DNA of 64,000 nt from Eledone cirrhosa (Eukaryota): assembly GCA_964016885.1 (NCBI GenBank), contig OZ024747.1:5208001-5272000 (forward strand), written 5' to 3'. Position numbers and translations under genes: made by a program. The notes beneath the pieces were generated by a model that worked only from the letters and a program-made list of their open reading frames with translations, made no database searches and was not told the origin of the DNA. Positions 15,115 through 34,795 of this stretch are shown here, piece by piece. Each line of letters opens with the position of its first letter. Position 1 is the stretch's first letter.

Positions 15115-17105
15115 TCCCGATCACTTTTCTCACTGTCATTGATAATGTTTTTACTTAAGCACAATGACACAAATTTGGTGGGTGGTGGAGTATAGTCACT
15201 AAATCTATCTCAGCATATTACTGGTATTTATTTTATTGACTTTAAACAGATGAAAAGCAAAGTCTACCTTTCTATAATTTGATGTTAGTAATAATTTTCT
15301 TTAGATTCCTTTGTCTAAGAAAATTTTTTTCTATTTTTCAGCCATTCATTTTACCAGAAAGGTGAAGAAAAATTTGAACTGAATCTACATCCATTTTTTG
15401 ACATTAAATCTACCTCACTGTAGAAATATAACAACAAATGTCATATGTGGATGTTGCTCTTTTCTAGTATATTTAAACTGAACAGCTACAGAGAGAAAGT
15501 GTATTGTTGATTCAAATGTTGTGTAGTGTTGTTCATCTCTTTCTAACAATGATTATTTATCTTCACATATATCTGTAAAGACAGAAGAGAAGAAATATCT
15601 TTTGTGTTGATATTTGTGATTCTCTATTTACAACCTCTACTGGAAATGACAATTCTTCTCTGTTAAATATTGTGTTAATGATAAAGCTGGTATCAATGCC
15701 AAAATGGCTGAACAGGAAGCGTTACTAAATAAAGAAATTTGCTTTGTTTGTGAAGTTTGTGGAGAAACATTCTCTACAAAATATACATTTATGAATCATG
15801 AAGTGATACATCAAAAAGAGAGAGGTATTTTTAATGAATCAATGTCTTCATATTTACCTCAGTATACCTGTGATATCTGTGGGAAATCTTTCCCAACTAA
15901 GAAAAGGTTTACTCAACATAGAAGAACGCATTTCAGACCCAAGATATTTCAGTGTGATGTTTGTGGTAATTCATTTGCTCAGAAAAATGATCGAGATAGA
16001 CACAAGCGAATACATTCTGGAGAGAAACCTTATCCTTGTGATGTATGTGGAAAATTCTTTTCCCGAAATAGTCATTTAAAAATCCACAAACTAACCCACT
16101 CGGGAGTAAAACCTCATCGTTGTGAGACATGTGGTAAATCATTCTCACAAAATTGTGATCTGGAAAGACATATACGTGTACACACAGGAGAGCGACCTTT
16201 TAAATGTGATACTTGTGAAAAAAGATTCTCTCAAATTAATGAACTTGGAAGACATAAACGAATACACACAGGAGAAAAGCCATATGCCTGTGAGTTTTGT
16301 CAGAAAACGTTTACTTTAAATTGTATTCTAGTAAGACATAGACGAATACATACTGGAGAAAAACCCTATAATTGCGATTTTTGTCAAAAATCATTTTCCC
16401 AAAATAGCATTCTTGTAAAACATTTGCGAATGCACCATGGAGGGAAACCTTATCAATGCAAGATTTGTGGTAACACATTTACAACAAAACGTATTTTAGT
16501 TGATCACACAAGAACACATACTGCAGACGGTCCTTATCCCTGTCAACTTTGTGGTGAAATATTTTCTCAATATACAGATATAGTGAAACACTTAGAGATA
16601 CACACTGGATGAAGAACTGTTGGAATGTTTACAAGAATATTTTTCTTAAAATAAAGAACTTTTCTCAGCATATAAAAATACCTTCAATCAAATAGAATTG
16701 AGAATTTTAAGTTTGTGTAATGACATACTGAAGAGAAATTCATTGATTTGAAGAGATCAACTTTTCTGCCTGAGTTGGGTATAATTTTTTCTACCTATTG
16801 CTTGGTGAGATGGTTTAGAATGAGATATCCATTGTTGTACTGGTAGATGGTAAATTTGAAGTTCTAAAGATGCAGAAATCTGAGAAGAATTCGAAATCAA
16901 TTTGGTGTATAGATTTTTATACATAAAATGGAATATTTGAGATACAAGAGATGTTATGGATAAAACGATTTTGAAAGCAACAAGTAACACCTTTTGAATT
17001 GGAATAACATAACTAATTCTTGGATGGCAAATACTGTTGATGTTATGGTAGAAGAAACCAACAGAGAATGTAACAGTGTATCAGGATTAAGGATTCAACA
17101 TTTAT
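15115..17105 (+). repeat. Left arm of a ~2-kb inverted duplication
   Basis: Reverse complement of ~32765-34795; UTR portions were identical wherever I compared them. Confidence 0.95.
15704..16612 (+). CDS. C2H2 zinc-finger protein, 302 aa, 10 fingers (copy 1)
   Basis: Intact ORF with ten CxxC-x12-HxxxH units and TGEKPY-type linkers; no effector domain recognised. Confidence 0.93.
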   Translation: MAEQEALLNKEICFVCEVCGETFSTKYTFMNHEVIHQKERGIFNESMSSYLPQYTCDICGKSFPTKKRFTQHRRTHFRPKIFQCDVCGNSFAQKNDRDRHKRIHSGEKPYPCDVCGKFFSRNSHLKIHKLTHSGVKPHRCETCGKSFSQNCDLERHIRVHTGERPFKCDTCEKRFSQINELGRHKRIHTGEKPYACEFCQKTFTLNCILVRHRRIHTGEKPYNCDFCQKSFSQNSILVKHLRMHHGGKPYQCKICGNTFTTKRILVDHTRTHTADGPYPCQLCGEIFSQYTDIVKHLEIHTG

Positions 17106-22007: not shown

Positions 22008-23985
22008 TAACCAAGGCCATAATTCTGGTGTTACTGGGGTTTCCATGTTTGGGCTCCACTCCTGAAATTCTTTGAAGACACAGTTGTGCGTGTCTCTGCC
22101 GGGTTTAACGCATGCTTGTGCTAGTTGGTCCATGTCATATTCGCATAGTTCGTTTGTTTTTTTTCTTTTCGGTGTGGATGGTTGTGGCAGTGCGTGTTTC
22201 TAATCCTATCTCCAGCTGCCGCCTAACTTCGACAAGTTTCTTTTTTTTGTTGGATGATATCTGATCGGTTTTGCTGGGTCTTGGTTTTTGTGATAGGTAG
22301 GTTTTGTTGTACTCTTTGCTAACTAATTTGTCGATATATGGCTTCCAGATTGTTAAACCACATCAAGGGGTTTAGTTCTATTTTACCCCAGTCTTTCAGT
22401 TGGGGCATTTCTCTATGAGTTCCGTAAAAGAATAGTCTGTTTTTCAGAGCATCCTTTTCATGCAGAACCACGTTCCACGGTTCTACGTTGCTGGTTGATA
22501 GCAAGGGCATTCTTTTAAGTACTCCTTGTTGATGCTTTATGTTTATGTAAGTCGGCGTGCCCTCCAAAATGCATTTGTCCTCTTCTGTGTTTTGGTTTGT
22601 GAACTACATTTCATCTGTGTAGATGAGGCTCTTGTCGATGCAGCTACCGAAAGTGAAATTGTCTGAAGCCTGGCATTACATTCTACTGCAGTTTGAGTCC
22701 ATTTCTTATGGATCGCAAAATGTAGGATTTTCCGCTATTGGAAGGTCCCATGATGTGCAACCCGTTTACTTTTGGGTTTATCTTATGACACACTTCGAAA
22801 GTTTGTCTGTTGAATGATTCGTGATCGAATGAGTGATGGTCTATCCATTCATTATAAATGTCTAGGGAAGTCTGTATATCGTGATAGCTGCTCGTCATCG
22901 ATAATTAATATCATATGGGGCGGATCTTCCGTTGTGTACAATACTTTGTTTATTAAAGTTCTATTGGCTACAACCATGTCACCTGACTGTAGTGTTTCTA
23001 TGCTCTCAGCATTTTTCCGTTCTTGTGTATGATCGAAATTGCAGCTGCTTATTTCGTTTAAGCATATGTCTTCCCATTCTTTGTCTCTTGCCCTATATCG
23101 TATTTCTTTGAATCCTTTATCTCTTTGCAAACCCATAGTACCATAGTTTGGTCCCATAGCGGTATCTAAGCAACCGTCCCATGTAATGTCTTTTCCCTGC
23201 CCCAAAATTTAGAATGGTACCGTGTACTGTTAAATTGTTGTATATGTCTACATTAGTTAGTGGTATGTTGTTTTTCCACGTGTGTGAATGAATCTCCTTG
23301 TCTAATTTTCTTTTTGGAACTCCTTTCTCTCCAGTTGTGGAAGTCGTTTATTTCAGTTGTGCATGAATGTCAATTTTCGTTGATGTTGCAATTTGCGTTC
23401 TCGTTAACGTATTCCGCTGTCGGCCGTATTAGTTGAAATCCTCTGTTAGGTATTTGTGTAATGCTTTTCAAGTTACCGTAACCTATAAAGTTTCCTTTGT
23501 CTACGAATACTTTGAAGTAAGGTTGAGGATTGGGAACGAATACTTGTTCGTTGTTTTTAGTTGTCCATTCTCCGCAAATGGTGTCGCTTGTGTTTACTCC
23601 TATTCCTTACTATTCTGTAAGATGTTGCGTTATATAGAGAAGTTTCGAATTGTGATGGTAATATCCAACTAGTTAAGAAGTACGGAACTATGTAGTCCTC
23701 CGCTTGTACTTCTCTGTAAGCGTAGTGTCCTACGTTGTGGTATCTGTTTTCTGATTCTATATATCTGGAGAATTTCACTTTAGCTGAGTTCATGTCGCAA
23801 CTTTTCACCATGTTTCTGAACGTTCTTTAGGAATGTGAACACTCGTTGATGATTTCCCGTAGGTGGAGGTAGTCCTCCACTTGTTGAAGTACTCTGCCAT
23901 CTGTTAGAGCAGAGTTTCCCAAACTTTTTCAAGCTGGCACCCCCTTGGCTTCCAGATAGATTCCTAGCGCCCCCTCTCCTATTAT
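22008..23985 (-). pseudogene. Endogenous parvovirus-like element 1, NS1 relic with SF3 helicase
   Basis: Walker A PKVNGLHIMGPSNSGKS (core 22725-22748), Walker B LIYTDEM, B' KCILEGTPTYINIKHQ, motif C PLLSTSN, arginine finger ALKNRL. Two in-frame stops and several frameshifts. About 1 kb of upstream coding-like sequence is probably also viral. Confidence 0.88.
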
Positions 23986-24228
23986 ACACATGTGAGCTTT
24001 TTTTTTCAAAGTGAAAACAACAATATTAAACACAAAATATGTATTTCAAAAATAATAATTAATTCAATAAACCATTTTATTTGGTCTTCGCAATTACCCT
24101 CAATATACACATGCAAGCATTTATTTTTTTTTGTTTCAAATTGAAAACAACAATATTAAACACAAAATATGTATTAAAAAATACATATTAATTTAATAAA
24201 CCATTTTATTTAGTTTTCACAATTACTT
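23984..24228. repeat. ~120-bp tandem duplication, probably the hAT 3' subterminal region
   Basis: TATACACATG...GAAAACAACAATATTAAACACAAAATATGTATT...AATAAACCATTTTATTT is present twice in tandem. Confidence 0.8.
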
Positions 24229-25608
24229 CTAATGGGATGGGTGTACTTGGTGTAGGGATATTACTTTCACCACATCAGGCTGGAACTCACTAAGAAGAAG
24301 TCATAGATCCCCACGTTTGGTAATTTTAAGTCTGTTCCTTTGCTTGGAATGAAGCAAGGCAACTGCACTGAAGCCCCGTTCTACCAAATATGATGTTGGA
24401 AAGGCAATAAAATATATCTTCACCTTGTTCCATAATACTGGATAGAAGTCAGAGATTTTTTTTTGTAACCAAAAATCTTGATATGATTTCTTGAACTTTG
24501 GCCTTAGTTCAATGTCGTTTTGGATTGAAACTAATTCTTCCTCTGCCGCTCCTGTGTCCTCACTGCTGACATCTAAGAATGGATTGATTACCCAGTCTGG
24601 TAATTTAAGCAATAAAAGATCCTGAAATCTTTCAGACATGTCTCTTTGCAACTCTTCCAGGTGAGCACAATACACTTGAAGGTCATCATCTGATATGCTC
24701 TTCTCTTTCTCCAATTCAGAGAGGCTTGGAAACTGGTAGATTTCATGACGGGCTTAGTTTCGTTTGAATAACTTACACTTAGACAGGAAGGTGGAGATAG
24801 TAAATTTGACTTTGATAAGGTTGACATCATTTCCTTGCAACTGCAAATTAATTTCATTGAACTTTGTGAATATATCTGACAAATAAGCAATGTCATCCTT
24901 CATGTTTTTAAGATCATCACAGAGCCCAGAGTTAATCTTGGAAAAATTCTACAACTGTATCAAACAGTGAAGTTTTCCTTTGACAGCCATCTAACTTCTG
25001 TGTGTAGCAATAAACGTTGACTCTTCATCATTATCAATCCAAAACTGTCGAAACAGTCTGGAATTGAGAGAATGTGCCTTGATTTTATTTACTGCTGTGA
25101 TAACTATTCATTGATTTGTGAAGTCGACCACTTAGGTTTTTTGCTACCAGATGCTGCCTGTGGATTACACAGTGCACTGTAGCACACCAGGTACAGTTTT
25201 TTTCAAGAAACTGATGAAGCCACGATGACGACCTATCATCAATGGTGCTCCATCTGTTGCACAAGCATGTTAGAAAGCGGGATGTTTTTCTCTTGGAAAA
25301 AATTCTCAACAACATTAAATACTGATTCTCCTTTAGTGTCTGTGTTAAGTTGTCTTGCAAATAACAGCTGTTGAACCAACTTTTCATCTTTGATAAAACG
25401 AACATAAGCAAGAAGCAAAGATTCACATCCTGGTAGAGTGGACTCATCTAACTGAAAGCTAAATTCTGTTGCGGCAAGAATGTTGCACAATGTTTTCAGC
25501 CATTTCATCTACTCTTCTTTGAACCGAGTTATCACTGAGAGGGATAGCTTTTATAATTTGGTCAGGTGACATGTACAACTGTGTGTAGAACCTCTCTTAT
25601 TGCAGGTT
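24229..25608 (-). mobile_element. Buster/Charlie-type hAT transposase fragment (ZBED5/SCAND3-like), frameshifted and 5'-truncated
   Basis: FSFQLDESTL, HCVIHRQHL, HTEVRWLSKG-like segment, FPTSYLVERGFS, KQRNRL and terminal QVHPSH*. No TIRs seen. Confidence 0.92.
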
Positions 25609-25919
25609 TAGGAGGATGACAATATGAGGACCTGCAGTCACTGGTTTTTAAAATAAAGGCGCTGGAATAGTGAGGCATCAAAAGTGCGCCATCGCTGGTG
25701 GAAGAGGTGCCCCTCTAATTTTTTTCTCACTTACCATCGCCAGTGATGAAAATAGTTATATTGCGGGTGTGCGATGTTACATGTAAATGTAACATCTGTA
25801 TCTGCTTGTCTATAAAAGAATATGTCGTACTCGGCCGAGTGTGTGAGTTTATGCACGAAACGTCTATGGGGTTTGTATTGCCTCCCCATGATGTACAGGA
25901 GGCTGTTGGTTGACTTTAG

Positions 25920-26690
25920 TCATAATTCTTCTTCTAACGGCATTGCTAATGGGCTCCAGTTTGGTGATTCTTCAACATGTATTGTCTATAAATTTGCTAA
26001 TGTATGGCGCCCATATGGTTAGCCACATTAACGGGTTTAGTTCGACTTTTCCCCACTGCTTCAGTTTTTGTCCATGGGTCTTGACGTTTCATAATAGAAT
26101 AATCTATTTTTGATTGCCTCTTTTTCATGTAGCACAACGTTCCATGGTTCTACGTTGGAAGTAGACAGACTTGGTGTTCTTTTCGATATTCGTTGATTTT
26201 GGTGCTTGATGTTTATGTATGTTGGCGTTCCCTCTAGGATGCATTTAGCCTCTTCTATATTGTTGTTTGTGAACCACATCTCATCGGTGTAGATCATTGT
26301 TTTGTCTATGCAACTGCCGAACGTAAAGTTGTCTGATGCCTGGCATCTCATTCGTCCGCAGTTCATAAGACCGTTTCTGATAGACCTTAGAATGTAGCTT
26401 TTACCGCTGTTCGATGGACCCGTTATGTGCAGTCCGTTTATTTTTGGAGTTTATCTTATGACAAACCTCAAAGGTATGTTGCGCGAATAGATTTTTATCG
26501 AAGTGTTGGTGTGTTAACCATTCTTCGAAAATGTCGAGAGATGTCTGTATATCATAATAGGTGGATGTCATTCCAGTGAAAAATTCTTTTTTGTCTCTTA
26601 TTTGTTCCCATATAGGCGTTACTTTAGTTTCTATGTTCGTTTCGACTGCTGCTGCTTGTATTATGTTTACCAAGTTTTCGGAAACAATGT
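25920..26690 (-). pseudogene. Endogenous parvovirus-like element 2, NS1 C-terminal half (SF3 helicase)
   Basis: KINGLHITGPSNSGKS (core 26397-26420), MIYTDEMW, EAKCILEGTPTYINIKHQ, TPSLSTSN, AIKNRLF. Frameshifts in A-runs near 26445 and 26065. Confidence 0.9.
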
Positions 26691-26724
26691 GTTAGAGGAT
26701 CCGATGTCATCTTGCGATGCGGAG

Positions 26725-27225
26725 TCAACTTCCATTTTTTTTATCACAGACATTATTTTTATACTTAAGAGAATGATTATTAGCATTATCGATGTTACCT
26801 GCACCGTCTTCTGGTCTGAAGTATGAATCAAATCCGAGATAGTGTTTTGTAGCAATTGCGCCCGCTGCCAATAAATACTGTTGGTGCTGCGTTGATGAAT
26901 TTTCTATCCGCGTCCCAGGTTCTCTTTCTAGGATTTGTGTAGTCGGTGTCATGAACTTTCGCAGCTTGGTCGAGGGTGTTTTTGGGTACTTGGAATCGTC
27001 TTACTTTTATATCTGTTCCTGGCCCTAGGAAGTTGTACCTTGAAAGGTGATGTTCTTCCGACTCCTTTCATGGGTGCGCGTACTCGGCATTTGTGGTGCG
27101 TGACAAATAGCGCTTGTCTATTTATAGTATATTTGTACTTGAAATATTTTCATTCTATGCAGTCGCTGGTTCGAAGGTTTATCGTAAATTAGTATAAGGC
27201 ACTTCTTTTCCCCTGTGGCAGCCAT
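26725..27225 (-). pseudogene. Viral-type phospholipase A2 (PLA2) domain ORF relic
   Basis: Manual translation gives YNFLGPGT (Ca-binding loop; YNFLGPG at 27017-27037), PKNTLDQAAKVHDTDY (catalytic HDxxY at 26939-26953) and ADRKFI, then AAGAIATKHYLG after a frameshift. One stop and two frameshifts relative to the ATG at 27225. Confidence 0.88.
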
Positions 27226-27276
27226 GGCGGTGAGGTATCACGTGATCTACTTACGATCACCACCCCTTCCCTTATA
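27222..27276 (-). promoter_or_regulatory. Candidate viral promoter: TATAAG, CACGTG E-box and strong Kozak CCGCCATGG
   Basis: TATA at 27271-27276, palindrome ATCACGTGAT at 27237-27246, ATG at 27225. Confidence 0.45.
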
Positions 27277-27689
27277 ATTAAGGTGTTAGTATTACAGAAA
27301 TATAATTATAACGAGCTAAGTATGTACATATGTGATATATGTGTGTGGAGAGTTAGAATAAAGTGTGAATTGTGGTGTATTTAGATGTTACAGAATTTGA
27401 CAGTGAATGTATGAATGTGGAGATGTGACTTGGGAAATAATATTACCATGATATCTGGCAGATTAACTCACTTGGCTGTGACAGCATTCACTACAATGGT
27501 CACTGTCAGTGTCTGGGAGGGAACAGAGAGGTCACAAAGTGAGGTTTCTTAAAATGGTAGCTTCGTTAAAATACTCATTGTTATTTTTGGCAATGATATA
27601 GCTGCGTTTCATACCCACGGATTTACCCCTGCAATAATTTTGCTGTAAATGCATTATTATTTTTTTTTTGTGTCTGCCAAATTTCTGTC

Positions 27690-30330
27690 AAAGTGTTTCC
27701 CACAAATATTGCACTGTAGGCACTCTTATATGTCAATATATAGATGTCTTTGGGGAATAAATACTTTATACCACAAATCTTACATTAATGTGGTCGTACT
27801 CGTCTGAGTTTTATCTACTAAGCCATTTTTTTTTTTTTTTTTTTTTTTTGTCAAATACGTCTTCATTAAACCGTAGTTGTCTATAAACTACAAAAGAAGA
27901 ATTCACAGTTAATGATTTTTTTCATATTTCACAGTGTGTATTCTTTTGTGTACTGTTAGTACTGAAATCTCAAAGATTTAGCACATATTTTATAATATGT
28001 ACCGTTAGTACTGAAATCTCAAAAGATTTAGCGCATATTTCACAGTGTGTATTCTTTTGTGTATGTACAGTACGGAAATCTCAAAAGATTTAGCGCATAT
28101 TTCACAGTGTGTATTCTTTTGTGTATGTACAGTACGGAAATCTCAAAAGATTTAGCGCATATTTCACAGTGTGTATTCTTTTGTGTATGTACAGTAACGA
28201 AATCTCAAAAGATTTAGCTCATATTTCACAGTGTGTATTCTTTTGTGTTGTACAGTACTGAAATCTCAAAAGATTTAGCACATATTTCACAGTGTGTATT
28301 CTTTTGTGTTCAGATAGTACTGAAATCTCAAAGATTTAGCACATATTTCATGTGTACTGTTAGTACTAAAATCTTAAAAGATTTAGCGCATATTTCACAG
28401 TGTGTATTCTTTTGTGTATGTACAGTACGGAAATCTCAAAAGATTTACCGCATATTTCACAGTGTGTGTTCTTTTGTGTACGTACAGTACGGAAATCTCA
28501 AAAGATTTACCGCATATTTCACAGTGTGTGTTCTTTTGTGTTCAGATAGTGCTGAAATCTCAGAAGATTTAGCACATATTTCACAGTGTGTGTTCTTTTG
28601 TGTACGTACAGTACTGAAATCTCAAAAGATTTACCACATATTTCACAGTGTGTGTTCTTTTGTGTATGTACAGTACTGAAATCTCAAAAGATTTAGCACA
28701 TATATTTCACAGTGTGTGTTCTTTTGTGTTCAGATAGTGCTGAAATCTCAAAAGATTTAGCACATATTTCACAGTGTGTGTTCTTTTGTGTTCAGATAGA
28801 ACTGAAATCTCAAAGATTTAGCACATATTTCATGTGTACTGTTAGTACTGAAATCTTAAAAGATTTAGTGCATATTTCACAGTGTGTATTCTTTTGTGTA
28901 TGTACAAAAATCTGAAATCTCAAAGATTTACCACATATTTCACAGTGATAAGATTTTTCTGTAATGTGAATTCTCCTAACGTTTTGAATGACTATCTCTG
29001 ACAAAATATTTTCCACAAATTTCACAGTGGTAGGGATTTTCTTGAATGTAAACACATTTAAATATTTAGAGAAGGCTTCCCCCACACTTTTCACAATGAT
29101 GAGGCTTTCCTCCAATGTTTTCTAATCTATGTGTTTTTCTAGAATTCCACTGTTTCGAAATGATTCTTTACAATCCCTAATGCAACAACAATGTGTTTTT
29201 CTTCATAATGTTTTACCACATAGTGTTGTTGTTTTTTTCAGAGCCTGGAAAAGTAATGGGCCATGTCTTGCCCTGCCTTCTCTGACTAATAAAAATAACA
29301 AAATCTTTACTTGTGTATTTATAGGTTTACTTTAAAACATAACTTAATGCTGAGTAAGCCTACAAAATGTCATGCCAATGTGGTTATTCTTTACATATAA
29401 TAATGTTTTCTTGAAAAGCTGTTGATCTGGCAAATATGGTGTTGATTGTTTATTTCTTCTGGCTCTCTATGCTCTCAGATCAAATCTAGCTGAAGGCTAC
29501 TTTTCCTTCCATCATTTTGGAAGGAAATTATGGACATAGCAGCCGATGCTGGCACAGCCTTCTCTCCTTCCAGTTGTCGTACTCTGGAAGTTCCACTGAA
29601 TCAAGGGTGGGAAGTAAAGAAGCTATAGCCCGGTGCTGGCATAACCCTCTCTCCTTCCAGCTGACATTCCACTGAATCAAGGGTGGAAGGATTGAGGTGT
29701 TTAGTTGTTCTGTTTGAAAATACTTTATCACTTATCTGATTAACACAAGTCATATTTCTTATATGATTTGTGGCCCCCAAAAAGATAAGAATACTGCAAA
29801 ATTATTTCCACAAATATCACAGTAATAAGGTTTTTCACCAACTGGTGGCCTAATGTGAATTGTTACAGTAGAATCTATAACTCATGGCTTCCCACAAATT
29901 TGACAAAAATATTGTTTTTAGTGCAAATACTTATATACAGAAAGGCAGTCCCCCTCCTGTAAATTGTTCTTCTGTGGTGTATCATACAACCTTTTCAAGT
30001 CAGAATGGGATCTTCTACAGCAGTTAGTGTTTATTACTTTGTACACCCATTCATGATTACCAAGGTTACACACCTTTTTTCTTTTTTAAGTATTTCTACA
30101 CACTGTAACTCGTTAGTATATTACAAGTTGTAAAATATTCAAAGAATGATTTCCTCACCTGCCTCAAGTGGAATATTCTCAGACAATGAGTTCCCTCTTC
30201 ATTTTCACAATGACAAATGTTTGTTTCTTCTATTCTTTTCTCCATTGTGTATACGTTTGTGGATTACAAGGTTAGAATTCTCAGAAATATTTACCACAGA
30301 TTTCACGTTCATTATTCATGCTACCCATTG
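27690..30330 (-). pseudogene. Decayed multi-finger C2H2 ZNF pseudogene
   Basis: Scattered minus-strand fingers: EICGKYF/NSNLVIHKRIHNGEK (~30240-30305), GEKPYYCDICG (~29805-29840), IHITEKSYHCEICGKS (~28927-28972) and QCNICGKH (~27700). Many stops. Confidence 0.75.
27922..28947 (-). repeat. 62-bp tandem array (roughly 17 units, including shorter variants) derived from one zinc finger
   Basis: AAAAGATTTAG recurs at 28021, 28083 and 28145 (period 62). The minus strand of a unit reads CEICAKSFEISVLYIHKRIH. Confidence 0.92.
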
Positions 30331-31980: not shown

Positions 31981-32764
31981 GTGGACAAAGAAGTTAATAT
32001 ACAGGAAATGGCAAGATATCTACCTTCAATAAGTTTAACCCTTTAGCATTCACATTACTCTATATATACTATTATATTTTCATGGTAAACCAGCCAGTTT
32101 CAACAGAAAGAGGTAGCGAATTCTGGCCGGTTTGAACATTAAAGGGTTAAGAAAAATCAATATTTAAAACAGTTGTTTTTTCATTAACATATATTTTTAT
32201 TTGGCAATAGTAAATTGTGAATATCTAAGAATATTCTGATTTAAAGAGGTATGTAAAATACTAATAAAGGAGTAAAATTAATTTGGGTGCCCATAAAATA
32301 ACATCTGACTTCATGTGTTATTTATATTTCAGAGATACAATAAAAAGGTGAAAAAGGAATGATACTATTGTGAATCATGTAACATTTTAGGAGCAGCAGA
32401 GTGTAGGGGAGTTGATATCTGATTTAAAAAAACAGGAGTTTAGAAATGTTTTCAGTTGTTTCTGGGGGCTGTTTTTATCATCATGATCCCCATCACATAC
32501 ATCATTATTTCGAGCGACATTAACCAGTCTGTAACATAAAATGTCTTCTAATTGACAATCTTTAAATCTTCTAAACTGAGATGCAACGTTTATAACAAAT
32601 TGGAGGAAATTATTTCTTTCCAAATATTTTTCCCACAACATCCTTCCATTCACGATTTTCAACCACTCATGTTACTTCATGAAACCAACATAATTGCCTC
32701 TGTGAAACCAATAAGGGTCTAAAACCACACTTTTAACACTTGCTACTATTTATATATCATTAAT

Positions 32765-34795
32765 AAATTGTTAATCCTTAATTTTTGTCTCCTTGATACA
32801 CTGTTACATTCTCTGTTGGTTTCTTCTACCATAACATCAACAGTATTTGCCATCCAAGAATTAGTTGTTATTCCAAATTCAAAAGCTTTTGCTTCTTGCT
32901 TTCAAAATCTTGTTTTATCCATAACAACATCTCTTGTATCTCAAATATTCCATTTTATGTATAAAAATCTATACACCAAATTGATTTGGAATTATTCTCA
33001 TATTTTTGCATGTTTTTGCATCTTTAGAACTTCAAATTTACCATCTACCAGTACAACAATGGATATCTCATTCTAAACCATCTCACCAAGCAATAGGTAG
33101 AAAAAATTATACCCAACTCAGGCAGAAAAGTTGATCTCTTCAAATCAATGAATTTCTCTTCAGTATGTCATTACACAAACTTAAAATTCTCAATTCTATT
33201 TGATTGAAGGTATTTTTATATGCTGAGAAAAGTTCTTTATTTTAAGAAAAATATTCTTGTAAACATTCCAACAGTTCTTCATCCAGTGTGTATCTCTAAG
33301 TGTTTCACTATATCTGTATATTGAGAAAATATTTCACCACAAAGTTGACAGGGATAAGGACCATCTGCAGTATGTGTTCTTGTGTGATCAGCTAAAATAC
33401 GTTTTGTTGTAAATGTGTTACCACAAATCTTGCATTGATAAGGTTTTCCTCCATTGTGCATTCGCAAATGTTTTACAAGAATGCTATTTTGGGAAAATGA
33501 TTTTTTACAAAAATCGCAATTATAGGGTTTTTCTCCAGTATGTATTCGTCTATGTCTTACTAGAATACAATTTAAAGTAAACGTTTTCTGACAAAACTCA
33601 CAGGCATATGGTTTTTCTCCTGTGTGTATTCGTTTATGTCTTCCAAGTTCATTAATTTGAGAGAATCTTTTTTCACAAGTATCACATTTAAAAGGTCGCT
33701 CTCCTGTGTGTACACGTATATGTCTTTCCAGATCACAATTTTGTGAGAATGATTTACCACATGTCTCACAACGATGAGGTTTTACTCCCGAGTGGGTTAG
33801 TTTGTGGATTTTTAAATGACTATTTCGGGAAAAGAATTTTCCACATACATCACAAGGATAAGGTTTCTCTCCAGAATGTACTCGCTTGTGTCTATCTCGA
33901 TCACTTTTTTGAGCAAATGAATTACCACAAACATCACACTGAAAAATCTTGGCTCTGAAATGTGTTCGTATGTGCCGAGTTAACTTCTTATTAGTTGGGA
34001 AAGATTTCCCACAGATATCACAGGTATACTGAGGTAAATATGAAGACATTGATTCATTATAAATACCTCTCTCTTTTTGGTGTATCACTTCATGATTCAT
34101 AAATGTATATTTTGTAGAGAATGTTTCTCCACAAACTTCACAAACAAAGGAAATTTCTTTATTTAGTAATACACTCTGTTCAGCCATTTTGGCATTGATA
34201 CCAGCTTTATCATTAACACAATATTTAACAGAGAAGAATTGTCATTTCCAGTAGAGGTTGTAAATAGAGAATCACAAATATCAACACAAAAGATATTTCT
34301 TCTCTTCTGTCTTTACAGATATATGTGAAGATAAATAATCATTGTTAGAAAGAGATGAACAACACTACACAACATTTGAATCAACAATACACTTTCTCTC
34401 TGTAGCTGTTCAGTTTAAATATACTAGAAAAGAGCAACATCCACATATGACATTTGTTGTTATATTTCTACAGTGAGGTAGATTTAATGTCAAAAAATGG
34501 ATGTAGATTCAGTTCAAATTTTTCTTCACCTTTCTGGTAAAATGAATGGCTGAAAAATAGAAAAAAATTTTCTTAGACAAAGGAATCTAAAGAAAATTAT
34601 TACTAACATCATATTATAGAAAGGTAGACTTTGCTTTTCATCTGTTTAAAGTCAATAAAATAAGTACCAGTAATATGCTGAGGTAGATTTAGTGACTATA
34701 CTCTACCACCCACCAAATTTGTGTCATTGTGCTTAAGTAAAAACAAATCATCATCATCATTATCATTATTAATGACAGTGAAAAGAATGATCGGT
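32765..34795 (-). repeat. Right arm of the ~2-kb inverted duplication
   Basis: Reverse complement of 15115-17105. Confidence 0.95.
33279..34187 (-). CDS. C2H2 zinc-finger protein, 302 aa, 10 fingers (copy 2)
   Basis: Intact ORF; 15 amino-acid differences from copy 1 by my count. Confidence 0.93.
   Translation of the reverse strand: MAEQSVLLNKEISFVCEVCGETFSTKYTFMNHEVIHQKERGIYNESMSSYLPQYTCDICGKSFPTNKKLTRHIRTHFRAKIFQCDVCGNSFAQKSDRDRHKRVHSGEKPYPCDVCGKFFSRNSHLKIHKLTHSGVKPHRCETCGKSFSQNCDLERHIRVHTGERPFKCDTCEKRFSQINELGRHKRIHTGEKPYACEFCQKTFTLNCILVRHRRIHTGEKPYNCDFCKKSFSQNSILVKHLRMHNGGKPYQCKICGNTFTTKRILADHTRTHTADGPYPCQLCGEIFSQYTDIVKHLEIHTG

What the first reader, a model, noticed from the sequence alone, without database searches (positions are those of the whole stretch)
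25731..27276. Endogenous parvovirus relic with a PLA2 domain upstream of the NS1 helicase on the same strand
Seen: the minus strand runs TATAAG, CACGTG, CCGCCATGG (27225), then a frame that, after repairing one stop and two indels, reads MAATGEKK...MPSTRTHERSRKNITFQG/YNFLGPGTDIKVRRFQVPKNTLDQAAKVHDTDYTNPRKRTWDADRKFI.../YLLAAGAIATKHYLG. Both the Ca-binding loop and the HDxxY catalytic motif are intact, and the ORF track misses them. About 250 nt past the catalytic motif the sequence enters the C-terminal half of an NS1 SF3 helicase. Established: parvoviral PLA2 normally lies in VP1, either downstream of NS1 (monosense genomes) or on the opposite strand (ambisense densoviruses). I recall a left-side PLA2-like domain in Penaeus monodon metallodensovirus; this needs verification. 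Inference: either a fossil of a mollusc-infecting parvovirus lineage with non-canonical gene order plus an internal deletion or splice, or a VP-to-NS junction from a concatemeric or defective genome. The GPGT and K..LG features also resemble adintovirus/Polinton PLA2, so domain capture is a third option.
Basis: partly seen in the sequence, partly recalled or inferred. Interest (0 to 1): 0.8.

Follow-up and report, generated by a model that had tools for sequence, protein, structure and literature searches.

The report
Capsid-first parvovirus fossil split by transposon
In this animal genome (likely an octopus) a DNA transposon carrying a piece of one parvovirus's replication gene sits inside the capsid gene of another fossil parvovirus, and the sister fossils have the capsid gene before the replication gene on the same strand, likely the real gene order of an undescribed virus lineage.

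Summary
Both domains are real (PLA2 E 2.8e-8; Parvo_NS1 E 2.6e-14), and an independent short-read contig spans the junction with no difference. But the PLA2 is the ordinary N-terminus of a capsid protein (VP1), and the junction at 26690 is not a splice, deletion or domain capture. It is the left end of a 2,780-bp hAT transposon inserted into the capsid gene with an 8-bp target-site duplication; the capsid gene resumes at 23901. About 1.07 kb of a second parvovirus copy (NS1 helicase to the right end) has replaced the transposon's left part. The larger result came from sister copies: two divergent families in this genome show capsid-gene end then NS1 start, same strand, 25-150 nt apart (10 and 12 loci), with no short reciprocal junction, terminal hairpins before VP and after NS1, and co-varying VP and NS1 divergence. 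Family A has TATA-like boxes before both genes; family B has conserved splice signals predicted to remove the whole capsid gene from the NS1 mRNA. Nine library searches found no description of this order. Gene order on free-virus contigs could not be read.

The parts
27190..27330 (-).
   Evidence: 81% over 32 nt to the upstream region of L040; motif forms the stem ends of the L024 hairpin; no hairpin left in the window, z -0.05
27119..27126 (-). TATA-like box about 30 nt before the VP1 start
   Evidence: sequence; a TATA-like box at a similar place in most of 13 family A upstream regions, read by eye
26698..27090 (-). 5' part of the capsid gene: VP1 start (27090), PLA2 (Ca loop 27037-27014, HDxxY 26953-26939), VP2-like Met at 26735; three frame changes
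   Evidence: PF08398 E 2.8e-8; aligns to residues 18-105 of P0001; pieces read separately
26690..26697 (-). Target-site duplication, left copy (CTCTAACA on the minus strand)
   Evidence: identical to 23909-23902; fits the nnnTAnnn sites of other copies of this hAT
26676..26689 (-). Left terminal inverted repeat of the hAT, first 14 nt only
   Evidence: 13 of 14 nt match the family left end CATTGTTTCCCAAA found next to the own 8-bp duplication in L057 and L061, with variants in L052, L058 and L065
25967..26675 (-). NS1 fragment of a second parvovirus copy inside the hAT (residues ~238-468; Walker A GPSNSGKS 26420-26397); frameshifts near 26445 and 26063
   Evidence: PF01057 E 2.6e-14; 74% DNA identity over 587 nt to the flanking NS1; closest relatives L018 (87% aa) and L022 (92% nt over 180 nt)
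25607..25966 (-). NS1 tail, 3' untranslated region and right-end remnant of that second copy, with small deletions; inverted terminal motif GGCACCTCTT near 25710
   Evidence: matches the post-NS1 region of L022 (84-94%) and L026 (83%); no hairpin left, z -0.58
23910..25606 (-). Body and right end of the hAT transposon (broken transposase, right terminal repeat ending at 23910)
   Evidence: 91-95% to other copies in G000; PF05699 E 0.006, below cut-off; exact right end shared by other copies
23902..23909 (-). Target-site duplication, right copy
22903..23901 (-). Continuation of the same capsid gene (residues ~126-504 of 608), frameshifted, cut by a deletion near 22900
   Evidence: residues after the element align directly after those before it in P0001, P0002, P0004, P0005
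21930..22892 (-). NS1 helicase and tail of the host relic (from residue ~277), joined to the capsid gene by an internal deletion; far limit approximate
   Evidence: bridged by one contig in each of X1-X4 with 0 differences

Best explanation
The window holds a broken endogenous parvovirus whose capsid gene (PLA2 at its start) is interrupted by a 2,780-bp hAT transposon carrying about 1.07 kb of a second parvovirus copy, and the virus lineage behind these relics likely had a linear ~4-kb hairpin-ended genome with the capsid gene upstream of NS1 on the same strand. Shown: 8-bp duplication, both hAT ends, capsid residues consecutive across the element, capsid identity, VP-end-to-NS1-start junctions in two families, hairpins before VP and after NS1. 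Inferred order of events: (1) a family A genome, already or later deleted between VP residue ~504 and NS1 residue ~277, integrated here; (2) the hAT inserted into its capsid gene; (3) the right-hand part of another family A genome replaced the hAT's left ~700 nt, most likely by patching a break in place, since only 14 nt of the left end remain and no second copy of the composite was found. Predicted expression in the virus: family A from two tandem promoters (TATA before VP, TATA before NS1); family B from one left promoter, NS1 mRNA made by splicing an 18-codon first exon over the whole capsid gene. The window copy itself is a dead fossil.
For: TSD identical at 26697-26690 and 23909-23902, right TIR exact, left TIR 13/14; chance of an 8-mer match at two fixed places 2.8e-5 (about 1e-3 allowing ~40 nt of slack at the left junction, my estimate). 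Capsid pieces align to consecutive residues of four relatives. Capsid identity: Atlas 0.96 to Denso_VP4/VP1_2 clusters, profile hits AAV VP1 E~1e-19 and PLA2-less capsid chains E 1e-5 to 7e-4, model pLDDT 68 matches parvovirus capsids E~2e-9. Of 59 G000 stretches examined (some overlap, chosen by hits), native VP-end to NS-start junctions: family A L013, L019, L023, L029, L030, L031, L032, L042 plus L015, L018; family B L011, L029, L043, L046, L050, L077, L079, L080, L081, L083, L086, L094 (four of these near-identical, so 9 variants). Hairpins 5' of VP (L079, L035, L024, L031; z -8 to -19) and 3' of NS1 (L077; z -21); head-to-head (L050) and tail-to-tail (L077) palindromes with axes at those ends. 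VP and NS1 identities co-vary: rho 0.83, Mantel p 0.0004 (A, 9 copies), 0.58, p 0.004 (B, 9 copies). Acceptor in phase in 12 of 12 family B copies; in-frame ATG after it absent in 5 of 12; GT donor in 9 of 10. Intact VP homologues on 3.8-4.5 kb Logan contigs; a VP and an NS1 each on a 4,017-nt ENA contig.
Against: No free-virus contig could be read, so gene order rests on integrated copies of one genome (viral contigs and metagenome scans found nothing). Mixed stacks exist: L036 has a truncated family B NS1 directly before a family A VP; L015 has a family B NS end 1.85 kb before a family B VP start. Fold-back palindromes also occur inside genes (L031, L025, L079), so palindromes alone do not mark termini, and perfect ones can be long-read artefacts. 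The HUH domain is supported only by an HFH motif and Atlas scores of 0.80. No RNA evidence for splicing or promoters. The window's own VP-NS1 junction is deleted. Timing of the NS1 capture (before or after transposition) is not shown.
Confidence: 0.85

Rival explanations
1. One reading: the virus had a stand-alone PLA2 gene or PLA2-NS1 fusion upstream of the helicase, or the junction is an internal deletion or splice of one genome.
For: PLA2 and helicase are adjacent on one strand; deletions joining VP to NS1 do occur in this family (L016, L024, L039 and at window ~22900); a 5' PLA2 ORF upstream of NS1 is known in SwaBA-MePV-1 (PMC13426907).
Against: 8-bp duplication, hAT ends and consecutive capsid residues; no other locus has this junction; in every copy with sequence behind it the PLA2 continues into capsid.
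Confidence: 0.04
2. The junction is a hAT insertion, but VP-before-NS1 is only an effect of integration: head-to-tail concatemers or circles of a canonical NS-VP genome opened at a fixed place.
For: Concatemer-like and stacked copies exist (L050/L094, L077, L079, L029, L046); no free-virus contig read.
Against: The VP-NS1 gap is 25-150 nt and holds no hairpin, while hairpins lie before VP and after NS1; no short same-family NS-end to VP-start junction among the 59 stretches; family B splice signals span the capsid gene; unit length of about 4 kb fits the outside contigs.
Confidence: 0.07
3. The composite (hAT plus NS1 fragment) formed elsewhere and transposed as a unit, a Pack-type hAT that moves viral DNA.
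For: The duplication flanks the whole composite and both termini are present.
Against: No second copy of the left junction (a lower-bound search); left subterminal region is gone. This rival differs from the best reading only in step 3.
Confidence: 0.2
4. PLA2 captured from an adintovirus or Polinton.
Against: The PLA2 is the N-terminus of a ~600-aa parvovirus-type capsid protein in both families and in outside homologues. An ancient origin of the domain was not tested.
Confidence: 0.02

Closest known systems
Monosense parvoviruses with PLA2 in VP1 (Parvovirinae such as AAV and bufavirus; Iteradensovirus)
   Same: PLA2 at the VP1 N-terminus, second Met and Gly-rich stretch, jelly-roll capsid, NS1 with SF3 helicase, hairpin ends, about 4 kb
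   Different: Capsid gene lies upstream of NS1; known monosense genomes are described with NS left and VP right (PMC9896142 passages; otherwise recalled). Only 10-16% identity in structure matches.
SwaBA-MePV-1-like megaparvoviruses (PMC13426907, sections 3.3.1 and 4.2 read)
   Same: A PLA2-bearing ORF lies 5' of NS1 on the same strand; lineage known partly from endogenous copies
   Different: There the capsid gene is still downstream of NS1, lacks PLA2, and the genome is ~6.4 kb with four ORFs; here the whole PLA2-capsid gene is upstream and nothing follows NS1
Acheta domesticus segmented densovirus (PMC10267136, passages)
   Same: Departure from the usual PLA2 and cassette layout
   Different: Bipartite, PLA2 ORF separate and downstream of the major VP; here monopartite with PLA2 fused to the capsid
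Penaeus monodon metallodensovirus (PMC11357303, passages and section 6.1)
   Same: Divergent aquatic-invertebrate parvovirus with an unusual transcription strategy
   Different: Described as lacking PLA2; no sequence relationship tested
hAT transposons of the Buster/Charlie type (label recalled)
   Same: Short terminal inverted repeats, 8-bp duplication with central TA, transposase with hAT dimerisation region
   Different: This copy has lost ~700 nt behind its left end and holds viral DNA there

Membership tests
Parvoviridae | NS1 with SF3 helicase | tested here: met
   PF01057 E 2.6e-14 (window), 1e-16 (L029, L023); best PDB matches AAV Rep, E 3e-12
Parvoviridae | HUH endonuclease in the NS1 N-terminus | tested here: inconclusive
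   absent from the window; HFH motif conserved in full-length relatives; Atlas hits to Rep endonucleases at 0.80 only
Parvoviridae | Jelly-roll capsid protein of parvovirus type | tested here: met
   (on the natural L031 ORF and alignment A3)
Parvoviridae | Linear 4-6 kb genome with terminal hairpins | tested here: met
   in sister copies: hairpins at both ends, unit about 4 kb; lost in the window copy
Parvoviridae | Single-stranded DNA in T=1 particles | not testable with these tools
   no virions or strand data
Parvoviridae | Separate NS and VP cassettes | tested here: met
   two ORFs in all full-length copies
Known monosense parvovirus genera | NS cassette upstream of VP cassette | tested here: not met
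   VP precedes NS1 in 10 family A and 12 family B loci; so not filed under any such genus
Any current subfamily (Parvovirinae, Densovirinae, Hamavirinae, Metallovirinae, Hepanvirinae, Penbrevirinae) | Placement in the SF3 tree and NS1 homology beyond the motifs | not testable with these tools
   no named reference NS1 set was returned; all 11 and 12 NS1 homologues are unnamed Logan/ENA records
hAT transposon | Short TIRs and 8-bp target-site duplication | tested here: met
hAT transposon | hAT transposase | tested here: inconclusive
   broken remnant; PF05699 E 0.006, 16.7 bits against a cut-off of 21.4

The most novel reading that the evidence does not exclude
An undescribed, subfamily-level group of parvoviruses of octopuses and probably other animals has the capsid cassette first and NS1 second on one strand of a hairpin-ended ~4-kb genome, and has solved NS1 expression twice: a second internal promoter in family A, and splicing out of the entire capsid gene as an intron in family B. 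Near-identical family B copies and intact outside contigs suggest the viruses are still circulating.
Probability: 0.7. Interest if true: 0.8.

Novelty: new variant of a known kind. Interest (0 to 1): 0.7.

Why it matters
The NS-then-VP layout of monosense parvoviruses is usually tied to their timing (NS1 early, capsid late). Two deeply divergent families (NS1 about 21% identical) with the reverse order would show that the layout is not fixed and give a natural test of how early and late expression can be rewired. It also gives cephalopod virology a concrete, probably living, DNA virus group to look for, and shows a DNA transposon and viral ends recombining at one site. The local PLA2-helicase adjacency itself is a one-off accident.

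Tried and rejected
The search for related loci found no relative in viral contigs (VP, NS1) or metagenome contigs (NS1). First fold (7 sequences) failed, pLDDT 33; single-sequence PDB search found nothing. No RNA holder listed. RAD-seq runs X5-X7 gave too few reads to test the junction; X1, X2, X4 showed no cover at 26142-26985, which proves nothing. No hairpin folds in the window's own ends. My first idea that 25966-25665 was a VP/NS1 junction was wrong: it is the NS1 tail and 3' end. My first idea that 26690 was a deletion was dropped. Earlier findings of the scan: none returned. No PLA2 or SF3 tree against named viruses was built for lack of reference sequences. Literature searches found no capsid-first parvovirus and no octopus parvovirus paper; the library lacks most subscription journals, the PmMDV primary paper was not held, and no supplements were read.

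Full report
Observation. The minus strand carries a PLA2 (PF08398, E 2.8e-8) and, behind it, an NS1 SF3 helicase (PF01057, E 2.6e-14). One short-read contig of run X3 covers 26079-27400 with no difference and no gap, so the junction and the frame changes are in the DNA; the run may be the assembly's own sample. The window is G000:C7:5208001-5272000 in a 3.0-Gb genome. The only named close homologue of the capsid protein is an Octopus vulgaris protein; that the host is an octopus is my inference from this and from the zinc-finger cluster.

The gene start. Outside homologues begin M-P-P/T-x-R, which corresponds to ATG 27090. A TATAAATA lies at 27126-27119, at a place where most family A copies have a TATA-like box (by eye). 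It lies in the remnant of the viral left end.

What the PLA2 belongs to. In other copies the PLA2 begins an ORF of about 600 aa (L019, L029, L031). That ORF is a parvovirus capsid protein: Atlas score 0.96 with Denso_VP4/VP1_2 clusters, profile matches to AAV VP1 at E about 1e-19 and to capsid chains without PLA2 at 1e-5 to 7e-4, and a model (pLDDT 68) whose best matches are parvovirus capsids. So the PLA2 is in its normal place, the VP1 N-terminus.

The junction. The 8-mer CTCTAACA stands at 26697-26690 and again at 23909-23902. The 2,780 bp between begin with CATTGTTTCCGAAA and end with the exact right terminus of a hAT family whose copies are 91-95% identical to this one. In five other copies an 8-bp duplication sits beside a left end of the form CATT(G/A)TTTC(C/T/A)CAAA; the window matches the commonest form at 13 of 14 nt. 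The capsid residues before and after the element, read as separate pieces, align to consecutive positions in four relatives. In full copies about 710 nt lie between the left end and the point equivalent to 25606; here 14 nt of terminus and 1,069 nt of viral DNA take that place. The viral piece runs from NS1 residue ~238 through the tail and 3' region to a right-end motif. It is only 74% identical to the NS1 of the host relic at 22892-22270, so it comes from a different copy. No second locus has this junction (lower bound). Inference: the hAT inserted into the capsid gene and the right-hand part of another viral genome replaced its left part, probably in place; capture before transposition is the rival.

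The lineage. Protein searches gave 41 capsid and 77 NS1 matches in G000 (floors, several per copy). I examined 59 stretches. Two families appear, with NS1 about 21% identical. Native junctions from capsid end to NS1 start on one strand: 10 loci in family A, 12 in family B (9 distinct variants). No short same-family junction from NS1 end to capsid start was seen; the nearest cases are L015 (1.85 kb gap) and the mixed stack L036. The remaining stretches hold one gene only or deleted forms. Hairpins lie 5' of VP (L079, L086, L035, L024, L031) and 3' of NS1 (L077, L029). L050 is a head-to-head palindrome centred about 400 nt before the VP start and L077 a tail-to-tail palindrome centred about 250 nt after NS1, behind AATAAA and an A-run, as rolling-hairpin replication would give (established knowledge); the two ends share a 19-nt core. 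Palindromes inside genes also occur, so this is support, not proof. VP and NS1 divergence co-vary across copies, as expected if each pair is one viral genome; kinship alone produces this, so it shows linkage, not selection. Outside this genome, intact family A capsids sit on 3.8-4.5 kb Logan contigs and a distant capsid and NS1 each on a 4,017-nt ENA contig, probably the same one; their order could not be read.

Predicted expression. Family A: TATA-like boxes 30-60 nt before the NS1 start in about 10 of 11 copies shown, by eye, in the non-coding gap in four of them. Family B: an ATG 54 nt before a donor in phase 0, 7-10 nt before the VP start (7 of 10 by script; L029 has GTGAGT at the same place, L015 has lost the ATG, L080 the GT), and a pyrimidine-rich acceptor in the VP-NS1 gap in phase 0 in 12 of 12, while the in-frame ATG behind it is missing in 5 of 12. 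Four of these copies are near-identical. This predicts an NS1 mRNA whose intron is the whole capsid gene. No RNA data were available.

Literature. Seen: passages and section 6.1 of PMC11357303 (PmMDV lacks PLA2), passages of PMC10267136, passages and two sections of PMC13426907 (a PLA2 ORF 5' of NS1 with VP still downstream), passages of PMC9896142 and PMC9616810. Nine searches found no capsid-first monosense parvovirus and no octopus parvovirus; most subscription journals and all supplements were outside what I saw, and unannotated GenBank genomes with this order may exist. That no classified genus has this order is my recall.

Verdict. The lineage it belongs to is the finding: probably parvoviruses with reversed cassette order. 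New variant of a known kind; interest 0.7.

Noticed in passing
G000 C12:8.97-9.09 Mb (L029, L039, L041, L043, L093), C25:7.43-7.46 Mb (L011-L014), C2:345.36-345.40 Mb (L019-L021, L046), C841 (L015-L017): Relics of both families are stacked in clusters, all on one strand within a cluster, often with hAT remnants in the same orientation; resembles single-strand piRNA clusters (inference).
   Followed up: partly
L050/L094 (C10), L077 (C998), L079 (C14): Family B copies 99.7-100% identical upstream of VP at three places, with open frames and inverted junctions: very recent integrations or assembled replication forms.
   Followed up: partly
L031:5155-5288, L025:4945-5311, L032:5409-5454, L079:3729-4960: Fold-back palindromes inside viral genes, like snap-back defective genomes.
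   Followed up: no
L013:5653-6673: A short tandem repeat expanded many times inside NS1, open in all three frames; a similar expansion lies in the capsid gene of L083.
   Followed up: no
window 15146-17105 and 32763-34745: Inverted 2-kb duplicate (96%) of a C2H2 zinc-finger exon of about 320 codons, bracketing the viral relic.
   Followed up: partly
window 27911-28947: Tandem array of 62-nt units derived from zinc-finger coding sequence; the period is not a multiple of three.
   Followed up: no
L022 (G000:C4:68695472-68696400) and L026 (C4:114447891-114449688): Closest relatives of the captured viral tail; L026 is a capsid gene joined directly to the NS1 tail, with NS1 deleted.
   Followed up: partly
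P0117 and P0189 (98,977-nt ENA contig), P0183, P0185-P0188: Distant capsid and NS1 homologues on long contigs, probably endogenous copies in other animals.
   Followed up: no
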